Of a DNA stretch of 64,000 nt, positions 511-33,853 are shown one piece after another. Numbering within the stretch: the stretch's first letter is position 1; each line of letters begins with the position of its first letter. The position numbers were made by a program, and so were the translations under genes. The DNA lies in contig CBFIDK010000005.1 of assembly GCA_965661345.1 (NCBI GenBank), forward strand, positions 17,301 to 81,300, written 5' to 3'. The stretch is from Flavobacteriales bacterium (GTDB lineage Bacteria; Bacteroidota; Bacteroidia; Flavobacteriales; UBA7312). Under the pieces are notes generated by a model. The model was not told the DNA's origin and searched no databases. It saw only the letters and a program-made list of their open reading frames with translations.

Positions 511-544
511 GCTAAAACAAGGACCCTTTGGTCCATCAAAAGAC

Positions 545-576: not shown

Positions 577-585
577 GTTAGACGC

Positions 586-617
586 TTTGCTTATCTGACA
601 TAAAATAGATAGATTTG
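586..617 (+). promoter_or_regulatory. Bacteroidota sigma-A type promoter inside the left repeat, pointing into the cassette block
   Basis: TTTG at 586-589, then a 20-nt spacer, then TAGATTTG (TAnnTTTG) at 610-617. Confidence 0.4.
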
Positions 618-664
618 AGGTGGAAAAACGTTTAAACTTAAAGCCGCTACCGCCATGAAAAAGC
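586..664 (+). repeat. left copy of a ~79-bp direct repeat bracketing the cassette block (partner at 8671-8748)
   Basis: By-eye alignment of tttgcttatctgacataaaatagatagatttgaggtggaaaaacgtttaaacttaaagccgctaccgccatgaaaaagc against the right copy gives roughly 85 % identity. Confidence 0.8.
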
Positions 665-981
665 TAGGTTTTTTTGCCAATACCTTTCAATTACCCAAGA
701 AATATCTTTTTCTGACTGGACTAGAATTTAGTTTTGCAACGCATTTATTGGAACAGGGTTTGAGCCTAAGACATATACAAACCCTGTTGGGACATAGTAG
801 CTCAAAAACAACAGAGCGTTACACACAAGTATCAACGCAAGAAATAGGACGTATAGTTAACCCTTTAGAGGCTTACTACAGCAGCATGAGTGGCACAATA
901 CATTCCAAAAATGGAAGTATCAAACCACTAAAAGAAAGAGATAACGAAAATAAACACCATAAAGGTGTACATATACAATAG
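655..981 (+). pseudogene. tyrosine recombinase/integrase remnant (C-terminal box II region only) inside a chimeric ORF
   Basis: Only aa ~20-65 ([36 protein letters not shown]) resemble the catalytic C-terminus (H/R...Y). The N-terminal ~250 aa of a normal integrase are absent. The ORF start (atgaaaaagctaggttttttt) is repeat-derived, with a similar sequence at 8651-8676. Confidence 0.7.
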
Positions 982-987
982 TTAGCT
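968..987 (+). other. first cassette junction (attI-like or attC 3' half): catatacaataG|TTAGCT
   Basis: It matches the 3' consensus of the downstream attC elements (..ATAC..A.(C)GTTRRR). TTAGCT at 982-987 is exactly complementary to the 5' box AGCTAA(C) of the first attC at 4273-4279. Confidence 0.55.
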
Positions 988-1020
988 GCAAGCAAAACGA
1001 ACATCGAATAATCTAAACAA

Positions 1021-4000
1021 ATGGAAATAAAACTACCAAATATTGAAAAGCTTATTTTTTCAAATGGAAGTAATAGTATTAAACAATACTATCATCAAGC
1101 TCCAACGTTAGATTTTGAATTTGTTCAAAGCAATCCATTCATCCTCTCTTCGAACGGAGAATCCTTCTTTATTACAAGTAATATTGATGACGATATTCCA
1201 GAAAATTGTAGTTATGCGCTACTATCTGCAAGAAAACCGCAAAAGAAGTATTTTTTATCTGATTCTTTAAAAATTAAAAGGTGGTTAAAACATCCATCAT
1301 TTGAGGATTTAACTCCGCAAAATGTATTAGCCTCATGGAAAGATAATTTTAAGTTTATTAAAGAAGATACCGAAAATGAAATTAAGGGATTACGTCCTCC
1401 CCAAATAGGTGCTCTATATTCCATACTTGCTCATGTGCAAGCTCCTGAAGACAGAGGTATTGTTGTAATGCCAACAGGGACTGGGAAAACAGAAACAATG
1501 CTATCAACTTTAGTCGCTAATATGTGCGAAAAGTTATTGGTAGCCGTTCCTTCTGATTCATTACGTACACAACTCTCAAACAAGTTTAACACACTTGGAT
1601 TGTTAAGAGAATTTGGAATGGTGGATGAATCTTGCCACAACCCAATTGTAGCTGTAATCAATCAAAAATTCGAAAATGAAAATGAGCTATTAGAGTTCGT
1701 TTCAAAAGCGAATGTCGTTGTAACAACTATGAGTATTCTCGCTGGTAGTCAATATCAACAACAAATAACTTTCGCCAATTCCTTTAGCCATTTTTTTGTT
1801 GATGAAGCTCATCATTCAGAAGCGACTACTTGGAAAAAAATCATAACACAATTTGATAAGAAGAAAGTGTTTCTCTTTACTGCTACACCATTTAGAAATG
1901 ATGGTAAGAACTTGGATGGAAAATTCATTTTTAACTTCTCTCTAAAAGAAGCACAAAATCAAGGGTATTATAAAACAATAAATTATTTGCCAATAAGAGA
2001 GTATGATAAAGAAGAGGCAGATAAGAAAATAGCAGAAAGGGCTGTAAATCAATTAAGGGAGGATATTGCAAATGGTTATCCCCATATAATCATGGCAAGA
2101 TGTGTTTCAAAGAATAGAGCTAAAGAAGTCTTTGCCCACTATGAGAGTCATGAAGATTTGAAACCAATAATTGTTTATACAGGAATACCGAGTTTAAAGG
2201 AAAAAGTAGAAGCAATAAAAGCAAAGAGACATAGTATTGTAGTTTGTGTAAATATGTTAGGTGAAGGGTTTGACCTTCCAGAACTTAAGATTGCGGCAAT
2301 TCATGATGAAAGACAAAGCTTACCTATTACTCTTCAATTTGTAGGTAGGTTTACTAGGACATCTTTTGATAGATTGGGTAACGCAAGCTTTATTACAAAC
2401 ATGGCCTACCCACCTATTCAACAAGAGTTGAATCATCTTTATGCCAAAAATGCCGACTGGAATCTCCTACTTCCTAATATGAGTGAAGGTGCCACAGATA
2501 AAGAAATTGATTTTCAAGAATTCTTAGATGGATTTAATGATCTTGAAAATTCTAAAATACCATTTCAAAATATCAATCCTGCTATGAGTTCAGTTGTTTT
2601 TCGAAATAATGGAAGCGATTGGCATCCTACTAACTGGAAGGAAGGAATTAATAACCTAGGTACATATGAACATCAATTTAGTAAACACAATTCTGAAAAA
2701 AATACTCTGGTAATAATCTTAGGTAAAGTTGAAAAGGTTGAATGGGGTGATTTTGATATGGTTCAAAACATGGATTGGAATATGATTGTTGTTCATTGGG
2801 ATTTAAGACCAAACAAAAATTTGGTATTCGTACATACGTCTCTGAAAAATCTATCATACACGAAGTTAGTTAATGCAATTTTTGGAGATGATACTACTCA
2901 AATCAAGGGCATGGATATGTTTAAAATTTTCCATGATGTGAAAAGACTTACCCTCTACAATGTAGGTGCAAGAAAAGGTACAGGACGAGATATAAGCTTT
3001 CAATCGTTTTTTGGAAAAGGAGTTCAAGATGGATTAAAACTCTTGGAACAAGGAACTTTAATTAAAAACAATGTCTTTGGTGTAGGCTTTAAAGAGGGTG
3101 AAAAAGTTTCATTAGGATGCTCTGTCAAAGGTAAAGTTTGGTCGTATTTAAGAGGTAACCTAAATGAGTTGACACAATGGTGTCAAAACATTGGAGATGT
3201 GCTTGTTGACCCAAATATCAATCCAAATACTGTTTTGGAAAACACCCTTATACCCATAACAATATTTGAAAGACCTAATGTTATTCCAATTGCAGTTGAA
3301 TGGCATCATGAGATGTTTGAACATTCTGAAAATAGATATAGAATTATTATTAAAGATACTAATTACGACCTATCTAATTCCGAATTAAACATCATCGAAA
3401 GTCCTATTAATTATCCTTTACTCTTTTGTTTCAAATGTGAAGATTACACCATTGAATATGAGTTTGTATTAGGTTCTAGAATTGTTGAAGGGGAACGAGT
3501 TGCTTTTCATGAAATCAGAAAGGTTTCAGCAGAGAATCCAATTATTACTTACGGAAGTAAGAGCGTAACTCTGACTAGTTTCTTGCAAGAATTTACTCCT
3601 ACTATTTGGTTTGTAAATGGTGGGCAGTTATTTCAAAATAGCTATGTTGTGCCAAAACCTTGGGTTGATGGAATTTCTATTGATAATATTATTTCTATGA
3701 ATTGGGATGGTGTTTCTATAAGAAAAGAGGCACAGGGTATCGCCCCATATGAAAAGGATTCAATTCAATATCATTTTATTAATAAAATTAGAGATGATTT
3801 TGAAATCATTTATGATGATGACGGTTCAGGAGAAATTGCAGATGTTATAGGGATTAATGATGGAGATAATAAAATAGATATTCATTTATTTCATTTGAAG
3901 TACGCTAAAGAAGGGCGAACGGGAAACGATATTGGAAATTTTTATGAAGTATGTGGACAAGCACAAAAATCACTTAATTGGAAATATCGAAATGGTAGAG

Positions 4001-4263
4001 ACTTTTTTAATCATCTTTTAAGACGTGTGACTAAAACAAAAAATGGAGCCACCTGTAGTAGAATAATAAAAGGGACTGAAAATGATTTAGAATTATTATT
4101 AAATGCGGCTAAATGGACCAAAGAAATGAAATTCCACATTTACATTGTTCAACCAAGTTTAGTAAAAGGAAAAGGTTCAGATAACATAATGTTACTTTTG
4201 GGAAATACTCATCACTACCTTCATACAGTGGGTAATGTAGAATTAAAAGTATATTCCAGTTAA
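1021..4263 (+). CDS. 1080-aa SF2 (DEAD/DEAH, type III Res-like) helicase with a large uncharacterised middle region and a C-terminal nuclease-like module
   Basis: Motif I MPTGTGKTE (1468-1494), motif II DEAH (1801-1812), motif III FTATP, motif V MLGEGFDLPEL, motif VI QFVGRFTRT (2335-2361). The C-terminus has GSGEIADVIG...IHLFHLKYAK (3820-3909). Confidence 0.85.
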   Translation: MEIKLPNIEKLIFSNGSNSIKQYYHQAPTLDFEFVQSNPFILSSNGESFFITSNIDDDIPENCSYALLSARKPQKKYFLSDSLKIKRWLKHPSFEDLTPQNVLASWKDNFKFIKEDTENEIKGLRPPQIGALYSILAHVQAPEDRGIVVMPTGTGKTETMLSTLVANMCEKLLVAVPSDSLRTQLSNKFNTLGLLREFGMVDESCHNPIVAVINQKFENENELLEFVSKANVVVTTMSILAGSQYQQQITFANSFSHFFVDEAHHSEATTWKKIITQFDKKKVFLFTATPFRNDGKNLDGKFIFNFSLKEAQNQGYYKTINYLPIREYDKEEADKKIAERAVNQLREDIANGYPHIIMARCVSKNRAKEVFAHYESHEDLKPIIVYTGIPSLKEKVEAIKAKRHSIVVCVNMLGEGFDLPELKIAAIHDERQSLPITLQFVGRFTRTSFDRLGNASFITNMAYPPIQQELNHLYAKNADWNLLLPNMSEGATDKEIDFQEFLDGFNDLENSKIPFQNINPAMSSVVFRNNGSDWHPTNWKEGINNLGTYEHQFSKHNSEKNTLVIILGKVEKVEWGDFDMVQNMDWNMIVVHWDLRPNKNLVFVHTSLKNLSYTKLVNAIFGDDTTQIKGMDMFKIFHDVKRLTLYNVGARKGTGRDISFQSFFGKGVQDGLKLLEQGTLIKNNVFGVGFKEGEKVSLGCSVKGKVWSYLRGNLNELTQWCQNIGDVLVDPNINPNTVLENTLIPITIFERPNVIPIAVEWHHEMFEHSENRYRIIIKDTNYDLSNSELNIIESPINYPLLFCFKCEDYTIEYEFVLGSRIVEGERVAFHEIRKVSAENPIITYGSKSVTLTSFLQEFTPTIWFVNGGQLFQNSYVVPKPWVDGISIDNIISMNWDGVSIRKEAQGIAPYEKDSIQYHFINKIRDDFEIIYDDDGSGEIADVIGINDGDNKIDIHLFHLKYAKEGRTGNDIGNFYEVCGQAQKSLNWKYRNGRDFFNHLLRRVTKTKNGATCSRIIKGTENDLELLLNAAKWTKEMKFHIYIVQPSLVKGKGSDNIMLLLGNTHHYLHTVGNVELKVYSS

Positions 4264-4272
4264 AAAGCCAGC

Positions 4273-4340
4273 AGCTAACAATGTATAAAAATCATAGCCA
4301 CCCTGCGGGATGTCTACGCTTCTTATACTGAACGTTAGCA
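4273..4340 (+). repeat. attC-like site 1 (68 bp)
   Basis: AGCTAAC-aatgtataa ... ttatactgaac-GTTAGCA. It starts 10 nt after the helicase stop and has no T-tract. Confidence 0.7.
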
Positions 4341-4344
4341 TTCA

Positions 4345-5115
4345 TTGATAAAATTTATGTATAAAAACACAATCTTAAAAATCAAGGCATTTCTATTAAA
4401 TGAAACTCTTTCAATAAGCGAAAGAATAAATTTGTTATCGAAGGATGCTGTATATCGAATTTTCATTCATCCTTTTTGTAGTCAAATTAGTTCTGAAATA
4501 TTGCACTATACAGATTATAAGTTCAATAACATTGTTGAACTCAAAACAAAGATTAAGGAAATAGTGAGAACAATACAACCAAGACCTCTTGGATTGCACA
4601 GCTATAAAGACTTTGAAATAGCCGAATTATCAAAAATATTTAATCAGATTGAAGTCAAAAGAGAATCAATTATCGATTTTATTGAAAATTTAGAGATAGC
4701 TACAACTGACTATTTCTATTTTAGGAATATTGACTTACAGGAATATTTAAAAGTGATCAAGACATTGGAACAAAAATTTCAGTTCAAAATATGCTTTGAT
4801 GCATTTGAACAAAATAGTTATCCATTGAAATCAATGACAATGCTGGAAAAAAATAATGTAGACTATTATTTTAATGAAACGTTAAGCGATTTAATCAGTC
4901 CTCAATTTTCCAGGTTTTATAATTTGGATAAACATGGTGGTAATGAAGCTGATCGCATTGATTGTTTAGAAAATGATTTGTCATGTAATAGAAACTGTGA
5001 ATGGTTGATATTATGTACAAACGAATATGTGTATTTCTTTGGAGATTGGATTATAGAATTTATGACGGATAAATGGGGGCAAATTAAATTGAACGAATGC
5101 CAACACCGTGTATAA
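4345..5115 (+). CDS. hypothetical protein (cassette 2 cargo); the true start may be ATG 4357
   Basis: 256-aa ORF with a TTG start in the track and an in-frame ATG 12 nt later. I recognise no motif. The last codons (..QHRV*) are encoded by the attC 5' box. Confidence 0.6.
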   Translation: MIKFMYKNTILKIKAFLLNETLSISERINLLSKDAVYRIFIHPFCSQISSEILHYTDYKFNNIVELKTKIKEIVRTIQPRPLGLHSYKDFEIAELSKIFNQIEVKRESIIDFIENLEIATTDYFYFRNIDLQEYLKVIKTLEQKFQFKICFDAFEQNSYPLKSMTMLEKNNVDYYFNETLSDLISPQFSRFYNLDKHGGNEADRIDCLENDLSCNRNCEWLILCTNEYVYFFGDWIIEFMTDKWGQIKLNECQHRV

Positions 5116-5229
5116 GTAATAGCGGTTTAAGTGATAAAACAAAAGTATAAACATAAAACAAAGGTCAGTGCAAAACCGAAAGGCTTGTGAGTAAAAATCC
5201 GCTACTACTCATACACAAGACCGTTATAG
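5098..5229 (+). repeat. attC-like site 2 (132 bp)
   Basis: TGCCAAC-accgtgtataagtaatagcgg ... ccgctactactcatacacaagacc-GTTATAG forms a long imperfect stem. Confidence 0.7.
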
Positions 5230-5238
5230 CCAATTAGA

Positions 5239-6081
5239 ATGAACAGAAGAAAATTTATAAGACGAACTTTTTTGGGAACAGTTGGGATTGGGTTTTTAAC
5301 TGGACTTTACACTTGGCAAATTGAACCTTTTTGGTTAGAATTTGTGAAGCGTAAAATGCTAATCTCTAATCTACCTGATAATCTGATTGGAAAAAAGCTT
5401 ATGCAGATTAGTGATATACACGTTGGGAATAGATTTGATTATAATTATATAATTGAATCATTTAAAAAAGCACAAAAGTTCAACCCTGATTTTGTTGTTT
5501 ACACTGGAGACTATGTAAGCTACGAAAACGAAAAGCAATTTAAACAATTAGAAGAAGTATTGAAACACACAGTTAAAGGAAAAATTGGAACTGTTGGAAT
5601 ACTCGGCAATCACGATTATGGAAAAAATTGGGCAGAACAAAATGTAGCTGATAAAATTTCAGAGCAATTGACTAACGCAGGAATTGAAGTGCTTAGAAAT
5701 GAACAATTAGATATTTCGGGGTTGAATATAATCGGATTTGATGATTATTGGGCATTGAATTTTGAACCCGAAAAAGTGATGAAAAACTATGACCAGAACA
5801 AAGCCAATTTATTGTTATGCCACAATCCTGATGTCTGCGATTTAGACGTTTGGAATGGATATAAAGGTTGGATCTTATCTGGACATACGCACGGAGGGCA
5901 GTGTAAACCACCATTTTTAAACGCACCAATATTACCTGTTAAGAATAAGAGATATTCGCAAGGCGAAATTGATTTGAATGACGGGAGAACCTTATATATT
6001 AATAGAGCGGTTGGGCACTTATGGCAAGTGAGATTTAACGTCAGACCTGAAATAACAATATTTGAACTTGAAAAAGTATAA
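5239..6081 (+). CDS. Tat-signal metallophosphoesterase (calcineurin-like), cassette 3 cargo
   Basis: MNRRKFIRRTFLG is a twin-arginine leader. The phosphoesterase motifs are DIHVGN, GDYV, GNHDY and GHTHGGQ. Confidence 0.8.
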   Translation: MNRRKFIRRTFLGTVGIGFLTGLYTWQIEPFWLEFVKRKMLISNLPDNLIGKKLMQISDIHVGNRFDYNYIIESFKKAQKFNPDFVVYTGDYVSYENEKQFKQLEEVLKHTVKGKIGTVGILGNHDYGKNWAEQNVADKISEQLTNAGIEVLRNEQLDISGLNIIGFDDYWALNFEPEKVMKNYDQNKANLLLCHNPDVCDLDVWNGYKGWILSGHTHGGQCKPPFLNAPILPVKNKRYSQGEIDLNDGRTLYINRAVGHLWQVRFNVRPEITIFELEKV

Positions 6082-6090
6082 AATAACTGG

Positions 6091-6221
6091 CTACAACACC
6101 GTGTATAATTCATTGCTAGTTCTAGCCTACTTACGAAAATCCTGGCGGATTTTCTATTTGGTTTGTATTTGCTAAATTAGTTACTGAAACACGCAACGAA
6201 ATCATACACAAACCGTTAGGC
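6091..6221 (+). repeat. attC-like site 3 (131 bp)
   Basis: CTACAAC-accgtgtataa ... catacacaaacc-GTTAGGC. It shares the 15-mer caacaccgtgtataa with site 2 and has an internal perfect hairpin gaaaatcc-tggc-ggattttc. Confidence 0.7.
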
Positions 6222-6236
6222 TACATTAAGAAAAAA

Positions 6237-6413
6237 ATGGGTGAACTCAAAAAACTTGATACTTCTCATATCGGAGGAAGAATATTTGAAGTCACAAAAA
6301 ACAACTTATATATTTTTGAAAAGTTTTCTAATTGGCTTATAAAAGTTTCATCTGAATTAAATGAAAATAGGTATAAAATAGACACTGAAAATTTTAAAAC
6401 AGTCTTTGAATAA
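6237..6413 (+). CDS. 58-aa hypothetical protein (cassette 4 cargo; below the ORF-track cutoff)
   Basis: Translated by hand: MGELKKLDTSHIGGRIFEVTKNNLYIFEKFSNWLIKVSSELNENRYKIDTENFKTVFE*. The ATG is 21 nt after the cassette junction. Confidence 0.4.
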   Translation: MGELKKLDTSHIGGRIFEVTKNNLYIFEKFSNWLIKVSSELNENRYKIDTENFKTVFE

Positions 6414-6467
6414 ATGAAAGTAAAATTACTGGATGGAAAATCAAAAAAACAAACTAGATTAAAAAAC

Positions 6468-6540
6468 GGCTAACAATAGCTGCAAAGCATAGGCCTAACC
6501 AACCAAACCGTTCCTACTCTTCATAGCAGGAATGTAAGCA
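6468..6540 (+). repeat. attC-like site 4 (73 bp, degenerate 3' box GTAAGCA)
   Basis: GGCTAAC-aatagctgc ... gcaggaat-GTAAGCA. An alternative perfect 5' box GCCTAAC lies at 6493-6499. Confidence 0.55.
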
Positions 6541-6562
6541 GCACTTAAAAAAGACAAAAAAT

Positions 6563-7615
6563 ATGATTAGAAAAATCTTAATTTCAGTAATAACAATTTT
6601 AACTTTTGTTTTAAACGCCAAATCACAAGATACTCTTGTGTCGGCTTTTTTTGGACTTGATAATGGACTACCAAGTTTATTATGTGGTACACCGGGAAGT
6701 CAGTTAGATGGTATGCCTGTGAATTTTATGTTTCCAATAGATGTATCCACCTTGTCAGAATCTGATTTTGAAGTTATAGATAGCCTTGGGAATATACACA
6801 TACCGATGTGTGCTGTTCTAGCACCAGCAAATGAAAACGGAGAAAATCGAACTGTGCTTCTGTTAGGTGAATTTGGTACCGCTGTTACCAATCCTCCTGT
6901 TGAAGTTAGAGTTGTAGGGGATTTATTTACGACTGATACTTTATCCGGAGAGTCCGCTTGTTCAGAAATCATAAACCTAAACGGAATCTCTACCAAGAAT
7001 ATTATTCCGCTCGCTGATGGTCCAAGTCTATTTTTTGCCCAAAAAATTTATGGTACTCTGAATGAATGTAGTTCAGGAACACAGACGATTCAAGTTGCTT
7101 GGAATGGTGGCATTACACCGTTTATAAGTGGGGATACCGAATCTGACTTATTTCAATACTATATTGGTTATTCTGATAGTTCGGGAGTTCTAATTCCACA
7201 TGTACCTATGTCGATAGCAGATATAAATGACAACGACAACTTTCACCAACTTTGTTTTTCTACAAGTGATAAAATTGTTAAAATTTCAATGATGGCTAAC
7301 ACGGTCGAAGACCCAAACCAAGACCCAAATTTATACAGCGAAATTGATGTTAGTTCCTGCCCTACTTTGACAAATATTGAAGAAACCCTTTTCGAAAAAG
7401 GGTATAAAATTTACCCGAATCCGTTTTCAGATGAAATTTTTGTTGAGAATCTTCTTGGTGATGAATACTTCATTATTTATGACTTTTTAGGGCGAAATAT
7501 TACAGAAGGAAAATATTCAGGAACAATAAAAATACCAGAAACAAAATCAGGTATATACTATATTACCATCCTAAACAATACCAATCAGACAACCTACAAG
7601 TTAATTAAAAGATAA
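6563..7615 (+). CDS. secreted protein with a T9SS C-terminal sorting domain (cassette 5 cargo)
   Basis: There is an N-terminal signal peptide. The C-terminal ~75 aa (KIYPNPFSDEIFVENL...GIYYITILNN...YKLIKR) fit the Por secretion tail pattern. Confidence 0.75.
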   Translation: MIRKILISVITILTFVLNAKSQDTLVSAFFGLDNGLPSLLCGTPGSQLDGMPVNFMFPIDVSTLSESDFEVIDSLGNIHIPMCAVLAPANENGENRTVLLLGEFGTAVTNPPVEVRVVGDLFTTDTLSGESACSEIINLNGISTKNIIPLADGPSLFFAQKIYGTLNECSSGTQTIQVAWNGGITPFISGDTESDLFQYYIGYSDSSGVLIPHVPMSIADINDNDNFHQLCFSTSDKIVKISMMANTVEDPNQDPNLYSEIDVSSCPTLTNIEETLFEKGYKIYPNPFSDEIFVENLLGDEYFIIYDFLGRNITEGKYSGTIKIPETKSGIYYITILNNTNQTTYKLIKR

Positions 7616-7616
7616 C

Positions 7617-7687
7617 TGCTTACAACAATGTGTATAATGTTCATGCCTCCCATTCGGTAGGCACGCCACATACACTAACTGTTGGGC
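7617..7687 (+). repeat. attC-like site 5 (71 bp)
   Basis: TGCTTAC-aacaatgtgtata ... catacactaact-GTTGGGC, with central stem gcctccc/ggtaggc. Confidence 0.7.
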
Positions 7688-7700
7688 GTAATTAAAACAA

Positions 7701-8576
7701 ATGGGATTCAAAAATTTTGACTTACTAGACTTTGAATTTGTTGAAGTACGATTTAATTGCTCAAATTGTGGAACACGTCTGCTATCCGAAAAAATTGAAA
7801 TTCCGGAAATATTTGACCCAGAATATCACGACAAAGAAGACTTTTTTTACACAAATGCTAGAGAAAAAACTTGTCCTAAATGCGATAAATGGCATATCAT
7901 TCACGTAGGCTTTGAAGATAATGAGGAAAGCGGTTATATCGAAATAGAAAAAGTTGAGAAAAAGGACATTCTAGAAGCTATTACTTATGACTATGGACTA
8001 TATTCCTATGAAGAAGACCAAGTAGACGCAATTCTTCGCTCTGATAATTCAATTGAAAGATTTGAGGAAGAGATAAAAAGTCTAATGGAACTTAACTCAC
8101 AATCTTTTAAAAAAGAAACACACGAGAAAACTATAAGAAAATTGGTTTTTTCAGGTGGTATAACCTGTCTTGAAGATTATTTATCTTCTACATTAATCAA
8201 GGAAGTCATTCAAGATGAAGTATTCTTCAGGAATTTTGTAAAAACTTACAAAAGAATAAATAACCGAAAATTCGAATTGGGAAATATTTATGACCAACTA
8301 GATAGCTTGTATGATATCGTCAAAAAAGAACTTTTAGATGTAATTTATCACGACCTCCCAAAAGTCAGAGGAATGTATAAAGATTCATTGGGAGTAATTT
8401 TTCCATCAATTGAGAATCTAATGAAGAACATTAAAACAAGACACGATATAGTGCATCGAAATGGAAAAACAAAAAATGGTAAATTTATTTTATTGAATAA
8501 GGAAGATATAGAATCACATTTAAAAGAAATTCAAAAATTCGTAAATAATATCGAAAAACAGATTAAAGAAATATAA
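7701..8576 (+). CDS. zinc-ribbon + HEPN-like protein (cassette 6 cargo)
   Basis: CxxC...CxxC (C20/C23, C58/C61; nt 7758-7883). The C-terminal helical domain carries R247-HDIV-H252 (Rx4H, nt 8439-8456). Confidence 0.6.
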   Translation: MGFKNFDLLDFEFVEVRFNCSNCGTRLLSEKIEIPEIFDPEYHDKEDFFYTNAREKTCPKCDKWHIIHVGFEDNEESGYIEIEKVEKKDILEAITYDYGLYSYEEDQVDAILRSDNSIERFEEEIKSLMELNSQSFKKETHEKTIRKLVFSGGITCLEDYLSSTLIKEVIQDEVFFRNFVKTYKRINNRKFELGNIYDQLDSLYDIVKKELLDVIYHDLPKVRGMYKDSLGVIFPSIENLMKNIKTRHDIVHRNGKTKNGKFILLNKEDIESHLKEIQKFVNNIEKQIKEI

Positions 8577-8584
8577 AAAACTAC

Positions 8585-8737
8585 GCCCAACAATGGCTAT
8601 AAGTAATTGCTTGTTCTCGCCTACACTTCAACTGGCTCAAGGCATAGCTTATGAAAATCCAGCTAGGTTTTTTGCCTATCTAACATAAAAAAGATAAATT
8701 TGAGTTGGAAAAACGAATAAACTTAAAGCCGTTAGCC
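8585..8737 (+). repeat. attC-like site 6 (153 bp), terminal site of the array
   Basis: GCCCAAC-aatggctataagt ... acttaaagcc-GTTAGCC. Its 3' two-thirds coincide with the right direct repeat. Confidence 0.65.
8671..8702 (+). promoter_or_regulatory. Bacteroidota-type promoter in the right repeat, facing the 8816 gene
   Basis: TTTG at 8671-8674, then a 20-nt spacer, then TAAATTTG at 8695-8702. Confidence 0.4.
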
Positions 8738-16761: not shown

Positions 16762-18144
16762 ATGAAAAAACATTTACTATTAATTTTCACTTTTTTATTC
16801 TCACTTATTTTATTTGCTCAATCTCCCGATAAAAAATGGAGCGTCGGTTATAAAATAGGGGCAGAACAGTTTGCGGGCTATGTTGGCGAAGGTTTTGATG
16901 GGCTTGATAAGTCTCACCTAATAAACGGCTTTACCCTTTCTAGAAGGATAAATAGCCATTTTGACGTTGGACTAAGCGCTTTACGTGGCGAAAACGACAG
17001 TCAGTATTATGACAATTATTATGTCGGTGAGAACATCTTGTTGCGCGATTTAACAATGTTTAATATGAACACTAAATTTAACTTTTTTAAATACGATGAT
17101 GTAAGGGTAAGGCCGTTTGTGTTTGCTGGCTTTAGCGTATTGGCCTATGATAATAATGGCCTTGACTTTGAATTAGACGATTTACAGTACCCTGATTTGG
17201 GCTTGGGTTTGAACATAAAGGTCTCTCCAACGGTAAATGTTACGTTTGATGAAACATTATTTTTTATAGATAAAGGTTTTGGCATCAATAATAAGTTAGA
17301 AAAATACCTAATGCATGCTGTAGGGGTTTCCTTTAATCTCGGTAAGCTAAAAGACTCAGACGATGATGGTGTCAGCGATAGAAACGACGAGTGTCCTGAG
17401 GTGTTTGGGCTAAAACAGTTTAGCGGTTGCCCAGACTCAGACAGCGACGGCGTCAAAGATTCTGAAGATAAATGCCCTAATGAAGCGGGATTAGTGAGCC
17501 TTGAAGGTTGCCCGGATTCGGACAATGATGGTATTCCTAACCGAACGGACGAATGTCCTAATAAGAAAGGAACAAAAGCGTTAGGCGGTTGTCCTGATAC
17601 GGATAACGATGGTATTGCTGACAATAAAGATGAATGCCCTAAGGCAAAGGGTTCAAAACAACTCAAAGGTTGTCCAGACTCGGACAATGACGGCATCGCT
17701 GATAAAGACGACAAATGCCCAAAAGTAAAAGGGTCAAAAAAGAATAAAGGTTGCCCAGAAGAGGTGGTTAAGCAAACGCCAAATCGAGAAAAAACCAAAG
17801 ACTCCTCTCCTCAAGTGTCTTTGTTTGTGGTAAACTTTGAAAGCGGTAGCAGTAAAATAAATAAAGAGTCAAAAACTATACTAAACTCTATTGTTGATGT
17901 ATTGAAGAAAAACCCGAATTACAAATTAGATATTAAGGGCTATACAGACACTGATGGTGACGAAAAAATGAACTTAAATCTATCAAGTTCAAGAGCCAAA
18001 ATTGTAAAGAATTATCTTGTAAATAAAGGGGTTTCTGCCAAGCGTTTATTCTCAAAAGGGTATGGCGAAGCAAACCCTATTGCTGATAATACGTCTGATG
18101 CAGGAAAGGCTAAAAATAGACGTGTTGAATTGTTTTTGAAATGA
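16762..18144 (+). CDS. OmpA-family outer-membrane protein with thrombospondin type-3 repeats
   Basis: Signal peptide and N-terminal beta-barrel-like region, then 5 x DxDxDG..D.CP repeats, then a C-terminal OmpA domain (GYTD..G....N..LS..RA....L...G, NRRVEL). Confidence 0.85.
   Translation: MKKHLLLIFTFLFSLILFAQSPDKKWSVGYKIGAEQFAGYVGEGFDGLDKSHLINGFTLSRRINSHFDVGLSALRGENDSQYYDNYYVGENILLRDLTMFNMNTKFNFFKYDDVRVRPFVFAGFSVLAYDNNGLDFELDDLQYPDLGLGLNIKVSPTVNVTFDETLFFIDKGFGINNKLEKYLMHAVGVSFNLGKLKDSDDDGVSDRNDECPEVFGLKQFSGCPDSDSDGVKDSEDKCPNEAGLVSLEGCPDSDNDGIPNRTDECPNKKGTKALGGCPDTDNDGIADNKDECPKAKGSKQLKGCPDSDNDGIADKDDKCPKVKGSKKNKGCPEEVVKQTPNREKTKDSSPQVSLFVVNFESGSSKINKESKTILNSIVDVLKKNPNYKLDIKGYTDTDGDEKMNLNLSSSRAKIVKNYLVNKGVSAKRLFSKGYGEANPIADNTSDAGKAKNRRVELFLK
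17353..17757 (+). repeat. five tandem 81-nt coding repeats (TSP3 calcium-binding motifs)
   Basis: The units are DSDDDGVSDRNDECPEVFGLKQFSGCP, DSDSDGVKDSEDKCPNEAGLVSLEGCP, DSDNDGIPNRTDECPNKKGTKALGGCP, DTDNDGIADNKDECPKAKGSKQLKGCP and DSDNDGIADKDDKCPKVKGSKKNKGCP. Confidence 0.85.
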
Positions 18145-29734: not shown

Positions 29735-29832
29735 AATTTTAAGTTTAATGATATAATACTATTAACAAAATATGTTTGAAAGCTCTTTTGTTATTCTACA
29801 AATTAAGCACTTAAAATGTATATTTTCGTTTG

Positions 29833-31953
29833 ATGCCTAAAAAAAAGAAAAAAAGAATAGTATCTAAACAGAGTTTACAATCGCAAGTTTTAAATGTTTT
29901 AAGAAAAAATCCAAAGAAATCCTTTAACTATAAACAACTTTCAAAACAAATAGGGGTTGGAGATGAATCACTTAAACTATTACTGCAAAAAGTACTTTTA
30001 GAATTAGAGGAAAACGAAAAAGTTGTTTCTGTAGGTCGAGGAAAATATAAATTAAAAACCCAATCTGCAGTTATTGAAGGTATCGTTGATATTACTGCTT
30101 CAAAAAAAGCTTACGTAAGTGTAGATAATCTGGATGAAGATATCTTTGTAAATGGTAAATATTTACCAAATATTGTTAGTGGTGATCGGGTTGAGGTTTC
30201 TGTTTTTTCTTCCTTTAAATCGAGAAGATTAGAAGGTGAAATAGTAAATGTGATTAAACGAAATACACATCAATTTGTAGGTAAATTAGAAATATCTAAA
30301 ACCTTTGCTTTTGTTGTTATTAGCAATGCTAAAATACATTTTGATGTTTTTATTAATTCAAAAGAAATAAAAAAACATAATCTAAAAAATGGTCAATTAG
30401 TTGTTTGTAATATAGATGACTGGGGTGATAAAAAAACCAACCCTAGTGGTAGTATAAAAGAAGTTCTGGGTTATCCTGGAGAACACCATGCAGAAATTTA
30501 TTCAATTCTTGCCGAGTATAATATTGATAAAACCTTCGATGAAAATATTGAAGAAAAAGCAAAGAATATTTCTCAAAAAATAACAAAAGAAGAAATTAAA
30601 TCTAGACGAGATTTTAGACCAGTAACTACCTTTACTATTGATCCTTTTGATGCCAAAGACTTTGATGATGCATTATCTATTAAAAAATTAAAAAATGATA
30701 ATTATGAAATAGGTATTCACATTGCTGATGTCAGTCACTATGTTCTAGAAAATGATATTATTGACAAAGAAGCACAAGAAAGAGCAACATCCATTTATCT
30801 TGTAGATAGGGTAATTCCAATGCTTCCCGAAATTTTATCTAATAATCTATGTTCACTTAGACCAAACGAGGAAAAATTATGTTTTTCTGCTGTGTTTGAA
30901 ATAAATACGGATGGCAAAATACTAAATGAGTGGTTTGGAAAAACCGTCATTTTATCAGATAGAAGATTTACTTATGAAGAGGCTCAAGAACGCATAGAAA
31001 ATAAAGAAGGCGATTACTCTTCTGAACTTATATTACTTAACGAAATAGCAAAAATTCTAAGAGAAGAAAGAACAAAAAAAGGCGCTATATCCTTTCATAA
31101 ATTAGAAACTAAATTCAAATTAGATGATGATAATAATCCTATTTCTCTTTTTATAAAAGAGAGTAAAGATGCTCATAAATTAATTGAAGAGTTTATGCTG
31201 CTCGCAAACAGAAAAGTAGCTGAATTTATTGGTAAAAAATCACTTCCTTTTGTGTATAGAATTCATGATACTCCTAATCCTGAAAAATTAGAGACATTAA
31301 GCTTTTTTCTAAAAAGTTTTGGGTATCAATTGCACACCGAAAATAAAAATAGCATTGCTAAATCTATGAATAAAATACTTATGGATGTAAAAGGCAAAGA
31401 TGAAGCAAGTATGATAGAAACTCTATCTATACGAACCATGGCTAAAGCAATTTATTCAACAGAAAATATTGGTCATTATGGATTAGCATTTAATCATTAC
31501 ACGCATTTTACTTCTCCCATTAGAAGATACCCAGATGTAATGGTTCATAGGCTACTTTTTAAGTACCTAAATGATAAATCAAGAGTAAATAAAGAAGAAA
31601 TAGAAAAGTTATGTAAACATTCTTCAGAAATGGAAATAATTGCTTCAAGGGCTGAACGAGATTCTATAAAATACATGCAAGCTGTTTACATTTCAAAGTT
31701 TGTTGGTGAAAAATTAGAGGGTATAGTTTCTGGGGTAACAGACTTTGGAATTTTTATTGAAGTAAGTAATACGAGTTGTGAAGGCTTAATTCGCTTAAAA
31801 GATATTCAAGGCGACTTTTACAAGTACGATGAAAAAAATTACTGTATTAGAGGAAGTAAAGGCGGTAATACTTATAGAATAGGCGATAAAGTAGACGTCA
31901 AGATAAGATCTGTAAACATTGAAAAAAGAGAAATTAATCTTATATTATTATAA
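29833..31953 (+). CDS. rnr: ribonuclease R
   Basis: RNB motifs HIADVSHYV, IYLVDRVIPMLP and HYGLAFNHYTHFTSPIRRYPD, plus a C-terminal S1 domain. Confidence 0.9.
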   Translation: MPKKKKKRIVSKQSLQSQVLNVLRKNPKKSFNYKQLSKQIGVGDESLKLLLQKVLLELEENEKVVSVGRGKYKLKTQSAVIEGIVDITASKKAYVSVDNLDEDIFVNGKYLPNIVSGDRVEVSVFSSFKSRRLEGEIVNVIKRNTHQFVGKLEISKTFAFVVISNAKIHFDVFINSKEIKKHNLKNGQLVVCNIDDWGDKKTNPSGSIKEVLGYPGEHHAEIYSILAEYNIDKTFDENIEEKAKNISQKITKEEIKSRRDFRPVTTFTIDPFDAKDFDDALSIKKLKNDNYEIGIHIADVSHYVLENDIIDKEAQERATSIYLVDRVIPMLPEILSNNLCSLRPNEEKLCFSAVFEINTDGKILNEWFGKTVILSDRRFTYEEAQERIENKEGDYSSELILLNEIAKILREERTKKGAISFHKLETKFKLDDDNNPISLFIKESKDAHKLIEEFMLLANRKVAEFIGKKSLPFVYRIHDTPNPEKLETLSFFLKSFGYQLHTENKNSIAKSMNKILMDVKGKDEASMIETLSIRTMAKAIYSTENIGHYGLAFNHYTHFTSPIRRYPDVMVHRLLFKYLNDKSRVNKEEIEKLCKHSSEMEIIASRAERDSIKYMQAVYISKFVGEKLEGIVSGVTDFGIFIEVSNTSCEGLIRLKDIQGDFYKYDEKNYCIRGSKGGNTYRIGDKVDVKIRSVNIEKREINLILL

Positions 31954-32394: not shown

Positions 32395-32829
32395 ATGAAA
32401 TACACAATTGGAATAGCCTGCGATCATGCTGGATTTGAATACAAAGAAAAACTTGTAAAATACCTTAAAGAAAAAGGACATACTGTTACTGATTTTGGGT
32501 GTTATAGTTCTGAAAGTGTGGATTATCCAGATTTTGCACATAAGTTGGCTAAATCTATCAAACAATCAGAAAATATAATAGGTATTCAATTTTGTGGAAG
32601 TGGCAATGGAATAAATATGAGTGCTAACAAACACCAAGAAATAAGGTCTGCATTGTGCTGGGAAACAGAAATAGCACAACTAGCGCGCTTACATAACAAT
32701 GCAAATGTATGTACCATGCCTGCAAGATTCATTTCATATGAGAAAGCCTTAGAGATAGTTAATGTATTTTTATCAACCGAATTTGAAGGAGGAAGACATC
32801 AAAAAAGAGTAGAAAAAATAAGCTGTTAA
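32395..32829 (+). CDS. rpiB: ribose-5-phosphate isomerase B
   Basis: GIACDHAGFEYKEKL and CGSGNGINMSANK motifs. Confidence 0.9.
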   Translation: MKYTIGIACDHAGFEYKEKLVKYLKEKGHTVTDFGCYSSESVDYPDFAHKLAKSIKQSENIIGIQFCGSGNGINMSANKHQEIRSALCWETEIAQLARLHNNANVCTMPARFISYEKALEIVNVFLSTEFEGGRHQKRVEKISC

Positions 32830-32839: not shown

Positions 32840-33853
32840 ATGAAAACACTATTATTATTATTATTTCCAATCAGTTTGTTTGCACAACAAACAAGCTTGT
32901 CAGAAGACAACACCAAATTAAAATATGTTAATACCATTACAGCAAATGATCTAAAAGATTATTTATATGTATTAGCAAGCGATTCTTTACAAGGAAGAGA
33001 AACGGGTACTGCAGGACAAATAGATGCAGCAAATTACATTGCAAACTTTTTTAAAGAAATAGGAATACCACCTTATAAGTATAACACATATTTTCAAAAA
33101 TTTAAAGTTAGACTTGTTAAACGCTACGGAAAACAGAATAAGAAAAATAATAATAAATATGTTAAAGGAGAAAATATAATTGGCTTTATTGAAGGCAGTG
33201 ATTTAAAAGATGAAATAGTAGTTATTACAGCTCATTATGATCATTTAGGCGTAAAAGAAGATACTTTGATTTATAATGGAGCAGACGATAATGGTTCCGG
33301 AACGAGCGCCATAATGGAAATAGCTCAAGCATTTATGTTAGCTAAAAAAGAAGGAAATGGACCAAGAAGAAGCGTTTTGATAATGCCGGTTTCCGGTGAA
33401 GAGAAAGGGTTATTAGGCTCAAAATATTATACAGATAATCCCATTTATCCATTAGAAAATACCATTGCAAACCTGAATGTAGACATGATAGGTAGAATAG
33501 ATAAAAACCATGATAATCCAGATTATGTGTATTTAATTGGGTCTGACAGATTAAGTTCAGAATTACATCAAATAAGTGAGGATATTAACAAACAGTATTT
33601 TAATTTTGAATTGGATTATACCTTTAATGCTGAGGATGATCCAAACAGGTATTATTACCGTTCTGATCACTATAATTTTGCTAAAAATAACATACCTGTT
33701 ATTTTCTATTTCAATGGAATTCATGAAGATTATCATAAACCTACTGATACTGTAGAAAAAATAAATTTTGAAAAAATTCAGAAGATTTCCAGATATATAT
33801 TTTTAACAGCTTGGGAACTAGCCAATAGAGACGAACGTCCTAGACTAGATTAA
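32840..33853 (+). CDS. M28-family metallopeptidase
   Basis: ITAHYDHLG, GADDNGSGTSAIMEIA and GEEKGLLGS motifs, plus a signal peptide. Confidence 0.85.
   Translation: MKTLLLLLFPISLFAQQTSLSEDNTKLKYVNTITANDLKDYLYVLASDSLQGRETGTAGQIDAANYIANFFKEIGIPPYKYNTYFQKFKVRLVKRYGKQNKKNNNKYVKGENIIGFIEGSDLKDEIVVITAHYDHLGVKEDTLIYNGADDNGSGTSAIMEIAQAFMLAKKEGNGPRRSVLIMPVSGEEKGLLGSKYYTDNPIYPLENTIANLNVDMIGRIDKNHDNPDYVYLIGSDRLSSELHQISEDINKQYFNFELDYTFNAEDDPNRYYYRSDHYNFAKNNIPVIFYFNGIHEDYHKPTDTVEKINFEKIQKISRYIFLTAWELANRDERPRLD

What the first reader, a model, noticed from the sequence alone, without database searches (positions are those of the whole stretch)
1021..4263. 1080-aa SF2 helicase with a nuclease-like C-terminus occupying a whole 3.35-kb cassette: candidate single-gene antiphage system
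Residues ~120-450 carry a complete SF2 motif set: MPTGTGKTE, DEAH, FTATP, MLGEGFDLPEL and QFVGRFTRT. The first ~120 aa and a ~450-aa middle region match nothing I recognise. The last ~180 aa look like a degenerate Mrr/PD-(D/E)xK-type module. The gene stands alone between two recombination junctions (981/982 and 4334/4335), so it is mobilised as a self-contained unit. It is several times larger than typical integron cassettes. Helicase + nuclease on one polypeptide is the architecture of several described single-protein defence systems (Hna, Nhi, Hhe-type), and chromosomal integron cassettes in Vibrio have been reported to carry antiphage systems. I cannot assign this protein to any named family from the sequence alone.
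Basis: partly seen in the sequence, partly recalled or inferred. Interest (0 to 1): 0.8.

Follow-up and report, generated by a model that had tools for sequence, protein, structure and literature searches.

The report
Uncharacterised helicase defence candidate in integron cassette
A 1080-residue helicase that fills one unusually large integron cassette belongs to a very widespread, unnamed protein family that repeatedly sits beside known anti-phage genes, so it is a credible but untested single-gene defence candidate whose proposed nuclease end is not yet demonstrated.

Summary
ORF 1021..4263 (+) encodes an intact 1080-aa protein with a complete SF2 motif set. It is the only gene in a 3353-bp integron cassette (982..4334) bounded by G|TTAGC junctions, with a folding attC at 4270-4340.

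The protein belongs to a large unnamed family: more than 1300 clusters at 50% identity, across many phyla, all annotated only as "DEAD/DEAH box helicase". The architecture is fixed:
- an optional N-terminal beta domain;
- a ResIII/XPB/RadD-like motor;
- a middle region with an RdgC/CENP-L/TBP-like fold;
- a beta domain;
- a C-terminal alpha/beta domain with invariant E938, D941, H958-x-K960 and Q980.

It is not Hna, Nhi, Hhe, HmaA or SauUSI, and no PADLOC (2023) model covers more than the motor. About 11 of 21 sampled homologue contexts carry known defence genes within 10 kb. Examples are an insertion inside a type I R-M operon, retron Ec78, Shango, CBASS, NACHT, TIR and SIR2. Most of the rest are mobile elements. 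E. coli carries the gene in only 8 of 5426 genomes.

The defence reading is therefore supported by association but untested. The "Mrr-like nuclease" label has no profile or fold-search support; only topology and invariant residues suggest a non-canonical PD-(D/E)xK-like site. The host looks flavobacterial, not Vibrio.

The parts
655..981 (+). 108-aa remnant of a tyrosine recombinase or integron integrase (C-terminal catalytic piece only). It is on the same strand as the cassettes, and its stop codon abuts the first recombination junction.
   Evidence: Pfam Phage_integrase, profile positions 135-171 of 172, E 2e-9. NCBIfam integrase_gron, XerC and XerD match the C-terminal ~50 aa only, far below cut-off.
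982..4334 (+). Integron gene cassette of 3353 bp holding a single ORF.
   Evidence: G|TTAGC junctions at 981/982 and 4334/4335. Homologous cassette ends occur in L003 and L002.
1021..4263 (+). Intact 1080-aa ORF, a member of an unnamed 'DEAD/DEAH box helicase' family with fixed architecture.
   Evidence: The AF2 full-length model has pLDDT 86.8 and pTM 0.70.
1021..1365 (+). N-terminal beta-rich domain (residues 1-115). No relatives by sequence; absent from the 996-aa enterobacterial homologues.
   Evidence: AF2 secondary structure with pLDDT >90. Profile versus PDB and Pfam finds nothing. Homologue matches start at residue ~88-102.
1378..2400 (+). SF2 motor (residues 120-460) with Walker A GTGKT (K156), DEAH 261-264, TATP 287-290 and QxxGRxxR 439-446.
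   Evidence: Pfam ResIII 1e-26. Foldseek finds XPB, RadD, SauUSI and LlaBIII at E 1e-11 to 1e-14. The motif columns are invariant.
2533..3225 (+). Middle alpha/beta region (residues ~505-735) with an RdgC/CENP-L/TBP-like fold; presumed DNA-binding module.
   Evidence: The model of residues 505-1080 has pLDDT 92.2 and pTM 0.88. Foldseek BFVD: phage RdgC proteins, E 1.7e-5 to 2e-3, prob 1.00. PDB: CENP-L 7qoo_L, prob 0.98. The tools do not report which residues align, so these limits are inferred from secondary structure.
3253..3675 (+). Beta-rich domain (residues ~745-885), unassigned.
   Evidence: AF2 secondary structure. No sequence match.
3718..4260 (+). C-terminal alpha/beta domain (residues ~900-1080) with invariant E903, Q916, E938, D941, H958, K960, Q980 and Q1044. 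It is a putative non-canonical PD-(D/E)xK-like site (D...HxK).
   Evidence: Invariant columns in 139 sequences. Topology H915-926, E929-932, E942-947, E951-959, H972-989 ... E1035-1043. The only sequence hint is Pfam DUF1064 (PDDEXK clan), E 0.035, in 2 of 36 members.
4270..4340 (+). attC site of the helicase cassette (R'' AGCTAAC ... R' GTTAGCA).
   Evidence: It aligns with the site downstream of the L003 homologue.
4335..8735 (+). Rest of the array: five further cassettes, all ORFs on the + strand. attC sites lie at 5101-5228, 6094-6220, ~6480-6556 and 7623-7686, with a degenerate last one.

Best explanation
The gene encodes a stand-alone ATP-dependent DNA translocase/helicase fused to DNA-binding and effector domains. 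Its most likely role is to protect its host from phages or other invading DNA. Here it has been captured as a single-gene integron cassette in a flavobacterial chromosome.

Proposed mechanism:
1. The ResIII/XPB/RadD-like motor hydrolyses ATP to move on DNA. The domain identity is shown; the activity is inferred.
2. The RdgC/TBP-like middle module, together with the optional N-terminal beta domain, holds or recognises the DNA substrate. The fold similarity is shown; the role is inferred.
3. The C-terminal domain is invariant at E938, D941, H958-x-K960 and Q980. It cuts DNA or otherwise acts on it as a non-canonical PD-(D/E)xK-type site. This step is inferred from topology and conservation only.

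No methyltransferase partner is conserved. Self/non-self discrimination would therefore have to come from DNA modification or structure (as in type IV restriction), or from activation by a phage factor (as in Hna). Nothing here tells these apart.
For: - The ORF is intact and all ATPase motifs are invariant.
- The family is very large with a constant architecture: 1313 representative clusters match residues 451-1080, almost always end to end within proteins of ~1000-1100 aa.
- AF2 models are confident.
- The closest motor structures are mostly dsDNA translocases and repair or restriction helicases: XPB, RadD, SauUSI, type ISP LlaBIII and Mfd.
- The middle region matches RdgC and CENP-L.
- Distribution is patchy and MGE-borne: 8 of 5426 E. 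coli genomes and 206 plasmid records across many genera.
- Defence neighbours occur in ~11 of 21 contexts:
  - inside an HsdM-HsdS-[gene]-HsdR operon;
  - beside retron Ec78 RT-PtuA-PtuB;
  - next to AAA_15, an Eco57I-type MTase and HNH;
  - next to GmrSD_N and an MTase-HNH gene;
  - between a DUF4011 giant helicase and a NACHT protein;
  - next to an adjacent AAA ATPase/ATP-dependent helicase gene pair of unchecked identity;
  - next to GMT recombinases, SIR2 and DUF3800;
  - next to Shango (SngA/B/C confirmed) with CBASS-like genes and AbiEi nearby, and again in Paracoccus;
  - next to a WYL regulator;
  - next to TIR and DUF3800.
- Integron cassettes are documented carriers of defence systems (refs 4-6 cited in bioRxiv 10.64898/2026.03.17.712381).
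Against: - There is no experimental phenotype.
- No named defence model covers the protein. PADLOC hits are confined to the helicase core, so the assignment rests on guilt by association from about 20 hand-sampled contexts, not a statistical enrichment.
- The nuclease assignment lacks any profile or Foldseek support.
- Two canonical acidic positions are replaced: Q916 in helix 1 and H958 in strand 3.
- Some homologues lie in non-defence surroundings. Three are syntenic next to a Mn/Zn ABC transporter and one is next to radA.
- An alpha-proteobacterial subfamily is clustered with an AddAB-like pair. That could equally indicate a DNA-end-processing or recombination role.
Confidence: 0.55

Rival explanations
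1. The protein is a DNA repair, recombination or replication-restart accessory helicase carried by mobile elements for their own maintenance or for host genome stability, not for immunity. The RdgC-like module would modulate recombination intermediates. The protein might cooperate with AddAB-type end-processing enzymes.
For: - The closest motor structures include the repair helicases RadD and XPB.
- The middle-region fold resembles RdgC, a recombination-associated DNA-binding protein.
- The alpha-proteobacterial subfamily forms a tight cluster with a PD-(D/E)XK nuclease and a UvrD helicase.
- One homologue lies directly downstream of radA.
- Three lie in a stable syntenic, non-defence location.
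Against: - The gene is rare and patchy within species (8 of 5426 E. coli), which is unlike a repair gene.
- It recurs in defence islands and sits inside an R-M operon.
- It is carried as an integron cassette.
- It falls far below every NCBIfam repair equivalog cut-off.
- There is no sequence similarity to RdgC.
Confidence: 0.2
2. The protein is a defence protein, but the C-terminal domain is not a nuclease. It would act as a sensor or regulatory nucleotide/DNA-binding module. Protection would come from ATP-driven remodelling or stripping of phage DNA-protein complexes, or from recruiting host nucleases such as AddAB/RecBCD-type enzymes.
For: - Canonical acidic residues are replaced (Q916, H958).
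- No nuclease appears among 100 listed fold matches.
- No PDDEXK profile match passes threshold.
- One subfamily is clustered with an AddAB-like nuclease/helicase pair that could supply the cutting activity.
Against: [quoted passage not shown] That is exactly the PD-(D/E)xK geometry.
- Extra invariant carboxylates D934 and E938, plus H958, could ligate metal.
- There is a weak DUF1064 (PDDEXK clan) hit.
- Most family members are stand-alone genes with no partner nuclease.
Confidence: 0.15
3. The protein is an orphan restriction subunit (type III Res-like or type I HsdR-like) that needs a methyltransferase or specificity partner encoded elsewhere.
For: - The best Pfam match is ResIII.
- NCBIfam hits, all far below cut-off, include dnd_restrict_1, EcoAI HsdR and the type I endonuclease.
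- One homologue sits between HsdS and HsdR of a type I system.
Against: - That operon already has its own complete HsdR.
- No Mod or HsdM gene is conserved next to the family in ~20 contexts.
- The C-terminal 630 aa has no similarity to Res or HsdR.
- The cassette holds one gene only.
Confidence: 0.05

Closest known systems
Hna (Sinorhizobium meliloti single-protein helicase/nuclease abortive-infection system; PMC13381803)
   Same: It is a single polypeptide with an N-terminal SF2 motor and a C-terminal PD-(D/E)XK-type domain. It is broadly and patchily distributed and has no methyltransferase partner.
   Different: Hna is 845 aa, with a DinG/XPD-like motor and a reduced Arch domain. The protein here is 1080 aa with a ResIII/XPB/RadD-like motor and a ~400-aa RdgC/TBP-like plus beta insert. 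Its site reads D...HxK. No sequence hit appears in the PDB sequence search.
SauUSI-type ATP-dependent type IV restriction enzymes (PDB 7CLG)
   Same: SauUSI gives the best full-protein PDB sequence hit and a strong fold hit for the motor. It is a single-chain motor plus nuclease plus DNA-recognition domain with no methyltransferase.
   Different: From established knowledge, SauUSI has an N-terminal PLD nuclease and a C-terminal DUF3427/SRA-like reader. Neither is found here: Pfam finds nothing and the matches are limited to the helicase region.
HmaA (Snf2 helicase with C-terminal NOV_C/PDDEXK nickase; PMC11232893)
   Same: It is a large SF2 ATPase with a C-terminal PD-(D/E)xK-superfamily effector, and it is active alone against T4.
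   Different: HmaA has a Snf2 motor and a Pfam-recognisable NOV_C domain with canonical D/ExK, and it lies in a three-gene hma locus. Here there is no NOV_C hit and no PADLOC Hma hit.
Type III R-M Res subunit and type ISP enzymes (LlaBIII, PDB 4XQK)
   Same: They share a ResIII-type dsDNA translocase motor joined to a PD-(D/E)xK nuclease on one chain.
   Different: Those enzymes need or contain a methyltransferase and target-recognition domain. None is present here or conserved nearby.
RdgC (recombination-associated DNA-binding protein) and the CENP-L/TBP-like fold
   Same: The middle region matches predicted phage RdgC structures (E 1.7e-5, prob 1.00) and CENP-L (prob 0.98).
   Different: The match is by fold only. 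There is no sequence or profile similarity to E. coli RdgC. TM-scores are modest (0.3-0.4 on the target) and rmsd is ~10 A. Here it is an internal domain of a helicase rather than a free ring-forming dimer.
Defence systems carried as integron cassettes (Vibrio SCIs and mobile integrons; Kieffer 2025, Darracq 2025 and Getz 2025, as cited in 10.64898/2026.03.17.712381)
   Same: This is a self-contained defence-type gene between attC sites.
   Different: Here the host is Bacteroidota-like, the integrase remnant is co-oriented with the cassettes, the cassette is 3.35 kb, and no helicase-based cassette is mentioned in the two integron papers read.

Membership tests
Integron gene cassette | 3' attC with R''/L'' ... 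L'/R' imperfect inverted repeats, in which the bottom strand folds better than the top strand | tested here: met
   In 4270-4340 the boxes GCTAAC...GTTAGC are present. The bottom strand folds at -12.9 kcal/mol (z -2.6) against -5.5 for the top strand.
Integron gene cassette | Boundaries at G|TTRRRY, and usually a single promoterless ORF | tested here: met
   The junctions are G981|TTAGCT and G4334|TTAGCA. There is one ORF, with a 39-nt leader and a 71-nt trailer.
Integron gene cassette | Lies in an array next to an integron integrase | tested here: inconclusive
   There is an array of six co-oriented cassettes. Only a 108-aa integrase remnant adjoins it, and the window starts 654 nt upstream.
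Integron gene cassette | The same cassette is found in other arrays or genomes | tested here: met
   Two Aquimarina loci, L003 and L002, hold 83%-identical genes with a homologous 5' end and attC. In L003 the gene is internal to a co-oriented ORF array.
Hna | DinG/XPD-like SF2 motor with a reduced Arch domain, ~845 aa, and a canonical PD-(D/E)XK (K729) | tested here: not met
   The feature list comes from PMC13381803. Here the motor matches ResIII/XPB/RadD, the length is 1080 aa, and no Hna chain appears in the PDB sequence search. I did not check whether entries 9YKJ/10UJ are in that copy.
Nhi / Hhe (Gao) / ZorD / DrmD / Hma | Full-length match to the system's PADLOC model | tested here: not met
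   PADLOC returns only partial helicase-core hits: PbeA, mREase_IV, Cas3 and DinG. That the 2023 PADLOC library contains models for these systems is my own knowledge, not checked here.
SauUSI-type type IV restriction enzyme | PLD nuclease domain and DUF3427-type modified-DNA reader flanking the motor | tested here: not met
   Only residues 247-450 align to 7clg. Pfam finds no PLD or DUF3427.
Type III R-M Res subunit | Adjacent Mod methyltransferase | tested here: not met
   There is none in the cassette, and none is conserved across ~20 homologue contexts.
PD-(D/E)xK nuclease superfamily | [quoted passage not shown] | tested here: met
   AF2 secondary structure gives H915-926, E929-932, E942-947, E951-959, H972-989 and E1035-1043, with pLDDT >90. 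This is topology only; no superposition could be made.
PD-(D/E)xK nuclease superfamily | Catalytic D at the start of strand 2 and (D/E)xK in strand 3 | tested here: inconclusive
   D941 and K960 are invariant at the expected places, but the middle acidic residue is H958 and the helix-1 position is Q916.
PD-(D/E)xK nuclease superfamily | Statistically supported profile or structure match to a known member | tested here: not met
   The profile against PDB finds nothing. Pfam gives only DUF1064 at E 0.035 in 2 of 36 members. PHROGs finds nothing. hhalign against Mrr, HsdR and McrC gives probabilities below 1%. No nuclease is among the top 50 Foldseek hits in PDB or BFVD. The query model was multi-domain, which lowers sensitivity.
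RdgC family (PF04381) | Sequence or profile membership | tested here: not met
   There is no Pfam hit in 20 members. hhalign against E. coli RdgC gives probability 0.15%. Only fold similarity is seen.

The most novel reading that the evidence does not exclude
This is the founding example of an undescribed, pan-bacterial single-polypeptide immunity enzyme. It would consist of a ResIII-type translocase coupled through an internal RdgC/TBP-like DNA clamp to a non-canonical (D...HxK) PD-(D/E)xK nuclease. It is spread by plasmids, GMT islands, IS elements and integron cassettes, including integrons of Bacteroidota, where cassette-borne defence has not been described. In alpha-proteobacteria it has been recruited into a three-gene module with an AddAB-like enzyme.
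Probability: 0.4. Interest if true: 0.65.

Novelty: new variant of a known kind. Interest (0 to 1): 0.5.

Why it matters
If the family is confirmed as defensive, three things follow.
- It would add a very common system that current annotation misses. Residues 451-1080 alone match more than 1300 clusters at 50% identity, across Bacteroidota, Pseudomonadota, Bacillota, Chloroflexota, Planctomycetota and others.
- It would provide a new effector/sensor module to dissect: an RdgC-like fold joined to a D...HxK site.
- It would show that integrons outside Vibrio and clinical class 1 elements also carry defence genes, even as 3.4-kb cassettes.

An E. coli homologue sits next to retron Ec78, which makes a test straightforward. 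If the family is not defensive, it is still a large orphan helicase family whose C-terminal 630 residues have no characterised relative.

Tried and rejected
- **Hna membership.** Rejected after reading PMC13381803: 845 aa, DinG-like.
- **HmaA.** Rejected: Snf2 motor plus NOV_C domain.
- **PADLOC.** The window protein and the E. coli, Klebsiella, Bacillus and Phaeobacter homologues gave only helicase-core hits.
- **NCBIfam.** All hits were far below cut-off.
- **C-terminal domain (885-1080).** The profile found nothing against PDB, Pfam or PHROGs. hhalign against E. coli Mrr, HsdR and McrC found nothing significant.
- **N-terminal domain.** The profile found nothing against PDB or Pfam.
- **Middle region.** The profile found nothing against PDB or Pfam, and hhalign against E. 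coli RdgC found nothing by sequence.
- **Foldseek, full-length model.** It returned only helicases.
- **Foldseek, residues 505-1080 against PDB.** No match reached E below 1e-3. The model could not be cut into single domains, and model coordinates are not exposed, so the C-terminal and N-terminal domains were never searched on their own.
- **Rfam on 1-10500.** No match.
- **Sigma-70 promoter scan.** Fewer sites than in shuffles, and not applicable to Bacteroidota promoters.
- **Literature.** Searches for the E. coli accession and for helicase cassettes in integron papers found nothing. The GMT/GAPS preprint shows no occurrence of 'helicase' in the search counts. The domain-centric discovery paper excluded single-gene systems.
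- **Last attC.** The site at 8578-8660 does not fold convincingly.


Full report
**1. Observation**

The + strand holds an uninterrupted ORF at 1021..4263 encoding 1080 aa. The quoted SF2 motifs are all present:
- MPTGTGKTE at 150-158, with K156;
- DEAH at 261-264;
- FTATP at 286-290;
- MLGEGFDLPEL at 412-422;
- QFVGRFTRT at 439-447.

They coincide with invariant or near-invariant columns in alignments of 70 and 139 homologues. Pfam recognises ResIII at 123-292 (E 1e-26), plus DEAD, SWI2_SNF2 and a weak Helicase_C. It recognises nothing in residues 1-120 or 450-1080.

The intervening 3' element, 4270-4340, has the attC layout GCTAAC...GTTAGC. That pattern occurs once in 64 kb against 0.06 expected. 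Its bottom strand folds much better than its top strand, -12.9 against -5.5 kcal/mol, with z = -2.6.

A stricter two-box pattern finds four such sites. All are on the + strand between 4.2 and 7.7 kb, and none is on the other strand.

The cassette, 982..4334, is 3353 bp. The other five cassettes are about 0.33-1.14 kb.

**2. Setting**

The array is not in a Vibrio. Several features point to Flavobacteriaceae, though this is an inference and not a taxonomic assignment:
- G+C is 31-43%.
- One cassette protein carries a type IX secretion sorting domain.
- The closest homologues, at 79-92% identity, are from Muricauda, Aquimarina, Maribacter, Polaribacter and Kordia.

Upstream of the first junction lies only a 108-aa C-terminal remnant of a tyrosine recombinase or integron integrase, on the same strand as the cassettes. 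The array ends before a DUF4153 membrane-protein gene at 8816.

The same cassette exists elsewhere. In two Aquimarina loci, L003 and L002, an 83%-identical gene has a homologous 5' end (…ACAAT-GTTAGC/ATTAAC-…CAA[AG]CAAAA…) and a homologous attC. In L003 it is internal to a run of co-oriented ORFs. Other close homologues (Maribacter, Polaribacter, Kordia, Chitinophagaceae) have no attC. The gene has therefore been captured as a cassette rather than originating as one.

**3. The protein family**

Database searches return thousands of full-length relatives of near-constant length, all named only 'DEAD/DEAH box helicase'. Residues 451-1080 alone match 1313 representative clusters at 50% identity, with 878 at E below 1e-10. 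Almost all match end to end, at the same position in proteins of ~1000-1100 aa. The C-terminal 630 residues are thus an obligate part of the family and not a local fusion.

Named members come from:
- Bacteroidota;
- Gamma- and Alphaproteobacteria;
- Bacillota;
- Chloroflexota;
- Planctomycetota;
- Poribacteria.

Plasmid records add Cyanobacteria, Streptomyces and Leptospira. Enterobacterial and alpha-proteobacterial members lack the first ~85-100 residues, so the N-terminal domain is optional.

**4. Structure**

The AlphaFold2 full-length model has pLDDT 86.8 and pTM 0.70. The model of residues 505-1080 has pLDDT 92.2 and pTM 0.88. Together they indicate:
- a beta-rich domain at 1-115;
- two RecA-like lobes at 120-460;
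- a long helix at 480-503;
- an alpha/beta region at ~520-735;
- a beta domain at ~745-885;
- an alpha/beta domain at ~900-1080.

For the whole protein, Foldseek finds only helicase cores: XPB, RadD, SauUSI, the type ISP enzyme LlaBIII, Mfd and TFIIH XPB, at E 1e-11 to 1e-14. This agrees with the sequence hits to PDB.

For the C-terminal 576 residues, nothing in PDB reaches E below 1e-3. The only confident match is CENP-L (7qoo_L, prob 0.98), with CENP-N and TBP lower in the list. Against predicted viral structures, the top five hits are phage RdgC recombination-associated proteins, at E 1.7e-5 to 2e-3, prob 1.00, over ~300 aligned columns. I therefore read the middle region as an RdgC/CENP-L/TBP-like, presumably DNA-binding, fold. 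There is no sequence-level link to RdgC, and the tool does not report which residues align.

**5. The C-terminal 'nuclease'**

The predicted order of elements is the classical restriction-endonuclease-like core:
- helix 915-926;
- strands 929-932, 942-947 and 951-959;
- helix 972-989;
- an insert;
- strand 1035-1043;
- helix 1054-1071;
- strand 1075-1079.

Residues invariant in 139 sequences include D941 at the start of the second strand and K960 at the end of the third, which are the places expected for the 'D' and 'K' of PD-(D/E)xK. Also invariant are E903, Q905, Q916, E938, H958, C978, Q980, R1014, Q1044 and P1045.

The signature is non-canonical, however. H958 replaces the acidic residue of (D/E)xK, and Q916 occupies the helix-1 position.

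Every statistical test I could run was negative:
- the profile against PDB;
- Pfam, where the only hit is DUF1064, a PDDEXK-clan family, at E 0.035 in 2 of 36 members;
- PHROGs;
- hhalign against E. coli Mrr, HsdR and McrC;
- the listed fold matches, none of which is a nuclease.

The fold searches used a three-domain model, which reduces sensitivity. I could not search the domain alone.

My verdict is a conserved, probably catalytic or ligand-binding site with PD-(D/E)xK-like geometry. 'Mrr-like' is not supported, and nuclease activity is an inference.

**6. Genomic associations**

No partner gene is conserved around the family in most lineages. In about 11 of 21 contexts inspected, recognised defence genes lie within 10 kb:
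- The gene is inserted between HsdS and HsdR of a type I R-M operon.
- It is adjacent to retron Ec78 RT-PtuA-PtuB in E. coli CX21, among IS elements and integrases.
- It is next to an AAA_15 ATPase, an Eco57I-type methyltransferase, HNH and HATPase genes.
- It lies between GmrSD_N and an MTase-HNH gene.
- It lies between a DUF4011/AAA_11/AAA_12/DUF3320 giant helicase and a 1956-aa NACHT protein.
- It is beside an adjacent AAA ATPase/ATP-dependent helicase gene pair and an integrase on a B. thuringiensis plasmid; I did not check what that pair is.
- It is beside gamma-mobile-trio recombinases, SIR2 and DUF3800 in Acinetobacter.
- It lies between DUF3800 and a TIR protein in Bradyrhizobium.
- On Rhodobacterales plasmids it follows Shango (SngA/B/C, E 1e-103 to 7e-273), with AbiEi and CBASS-type genes nearby.

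Other contexts are mobile elements without obvious defence genes: an integrative element, a transposon, an IS5-flanked segment on a Klebsiella plasmid, and a pseudogenised copy on a Marivirga plasmid.

A minority of contexts are neutral. Three are syntenic loci beside a Mn/Zn ABC transporter, and one is downstream of radA.

In E. coli the gene is present in 8 of 5426 complete genomes. This pattern argues strongly against a housekeeping role and for an accessory, conflict-related one. It is still a hand sample and not a statistic.

**7. A complication**

On Phaeobacter, Paracoccus and Mesorhizobium plasmids, the 35%-identical homologue (1112 aa) is the last gene of a tight cluster: a PD-(D/E)XK nuclease family protein (884 aa), a UvrD-domain helicase (1131 aa), then the family gene. 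In Mesorhizobium a WYL regulator lies upstream. The pair has no PADLOC system assignment.

So 'single-gene system' is true for this cassette and for most sampled members, but not for the whole family. This link to an AddAB-like enzyme is the best argument for the rival DNA-end-processing reading.

**8. Comparison with known systems**

Functionally the protein resembles single-chain motor-plus-nuclease defence proteins. It fails the membership tests for each.
- **Hna:** DinG-like, 845 aa.
- **HmaA:** Snf2 motor plus NOV_C domain.
- **SauUSI:** PLD nuclease plus DUF3427 reader; only the motor matches.
- **Type III Res and type ISP enzymes:** these require a methyltransferase, which is absent here.
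- **Nhi, Hhe, ZorD and DrmD:** no PADLOC hit.

The integron literature documents defence cassettes in Vibrio SCIs and mobile integrons, and notes that large cassettes recombine poorly. The two integron papers I read mention no helicase cassette.

**9. Verdict**

The most likely explanation (confidence about 0.55) is a stand-alone ATP-dependent translocase with an RdgC-like DNA-binding module and a non-canonical PD-(D/E)xK-like effector, acting in anti-phage or anti-MGE defence and here mobilised as a 3.35-kb integron cassette.

- **Shown:** gene integrity, motifs, cassette structure, family breadth, fold similarities and neighbourhoods.
- **Inferred:** ATP-driven translocation, DNA cleavage, the defence phenotype and the mode of self/non-self discrimination.

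I rate it a new variant of a known kind, of moderate interest. Helicase-nuclease defence proteins are a familiar theme, but this family is large, unnamed and structurally distinctive, and it can be tested easily through its E. coli member.

Noticed in passing
window 586-661 and 8671-8746: A 76-nt direct repeat (86% identical, the only two copies in the window) brackets the integrase remnant plus the whole six-cassette array. Copy 1 supplies the ATG of the 108-aa integrase-fragment ORF. Copy 2 contains a GTTAGCC R'-like box. Its origin is unexplained; it could be a duplication, a recombination scar or a small repeat element. There is no Rfam match.
   Followed up: partly
L031 7538-16937 (Phaeobacter CP104101.1); L033 (Paracoccus); L029 (Mesorhizobium): On alpha-proteobacterial plasmids the family gene ends a tight three-gene cluster with an 884-aa PD-(D/E)XK nuclease and an 1131-aa UvrD helicase (AddAB-like). 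The cluster directly follows a Shango system in two plasmids and a WYL regulator in the third. The trio is not a PADLOC system.
   Followed up: partly
window 7701-8576 (+): The last cassette ORF (291 aa) has an N-terminal CxxC...CxxC zinc-ribbon-like motif and a C-terminal 'TRHDIVHRNG' (Rx4H) motif that resembles a HEPN RNase signature. It has no significant Pfam or PADLOC match.
   Followed up: partly
window 5239-6081 (+): The third cassette encodes a calcineurin-like metallophosphoesterase with an N-terminal membrane or signal segment. It weakly matches the PADLOC candidate single-gene system PDC-S10 (E 3e-7, partial).
   Followed up: no
window 966-986: The sequence just upstream of the first junction (ATATACAATAG|TTAGC) looks like the L'-R' half of an attC. 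It matches the attC-attC junction upstream of the L003 homologue (TATACACAATTG|TTAGC). The 'attI-side' junction may therefore be a former attC, which overlaps the tail of the integrase-remnant ORF.
   Followed up: no
window ~29800-34000: G+C drops markedly to 0.27-0.29, against 0.36-0.42 around it, over ORFs 29830..31953, 32395..32829 and 32840..33853. This may be a second horizontally acquired segment.
   Followed up: no
window 17352-17748: There are three to five tandem 81-nt units inside the OmpA-family gene 16762..18144. They encode thrombospondin type 3 (calcium-binding) repeats.
   Followed up: no
L015 6799-9717 and L023 6724-9648: In two related metagenomic genomes a 972-974-aa protein with no Pfam match is transcribed divergently from the family gene. 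It is absent from the third syntenic genome, L018.
   Followed up: no
L011 8001-11217 (Marivirga plasmid NZ_CP129969.1): The 73%-identical copy is broken into at least four annotated fragments (six tblastn pieces), so it is a decaying pseudogene.
   Followed up: no
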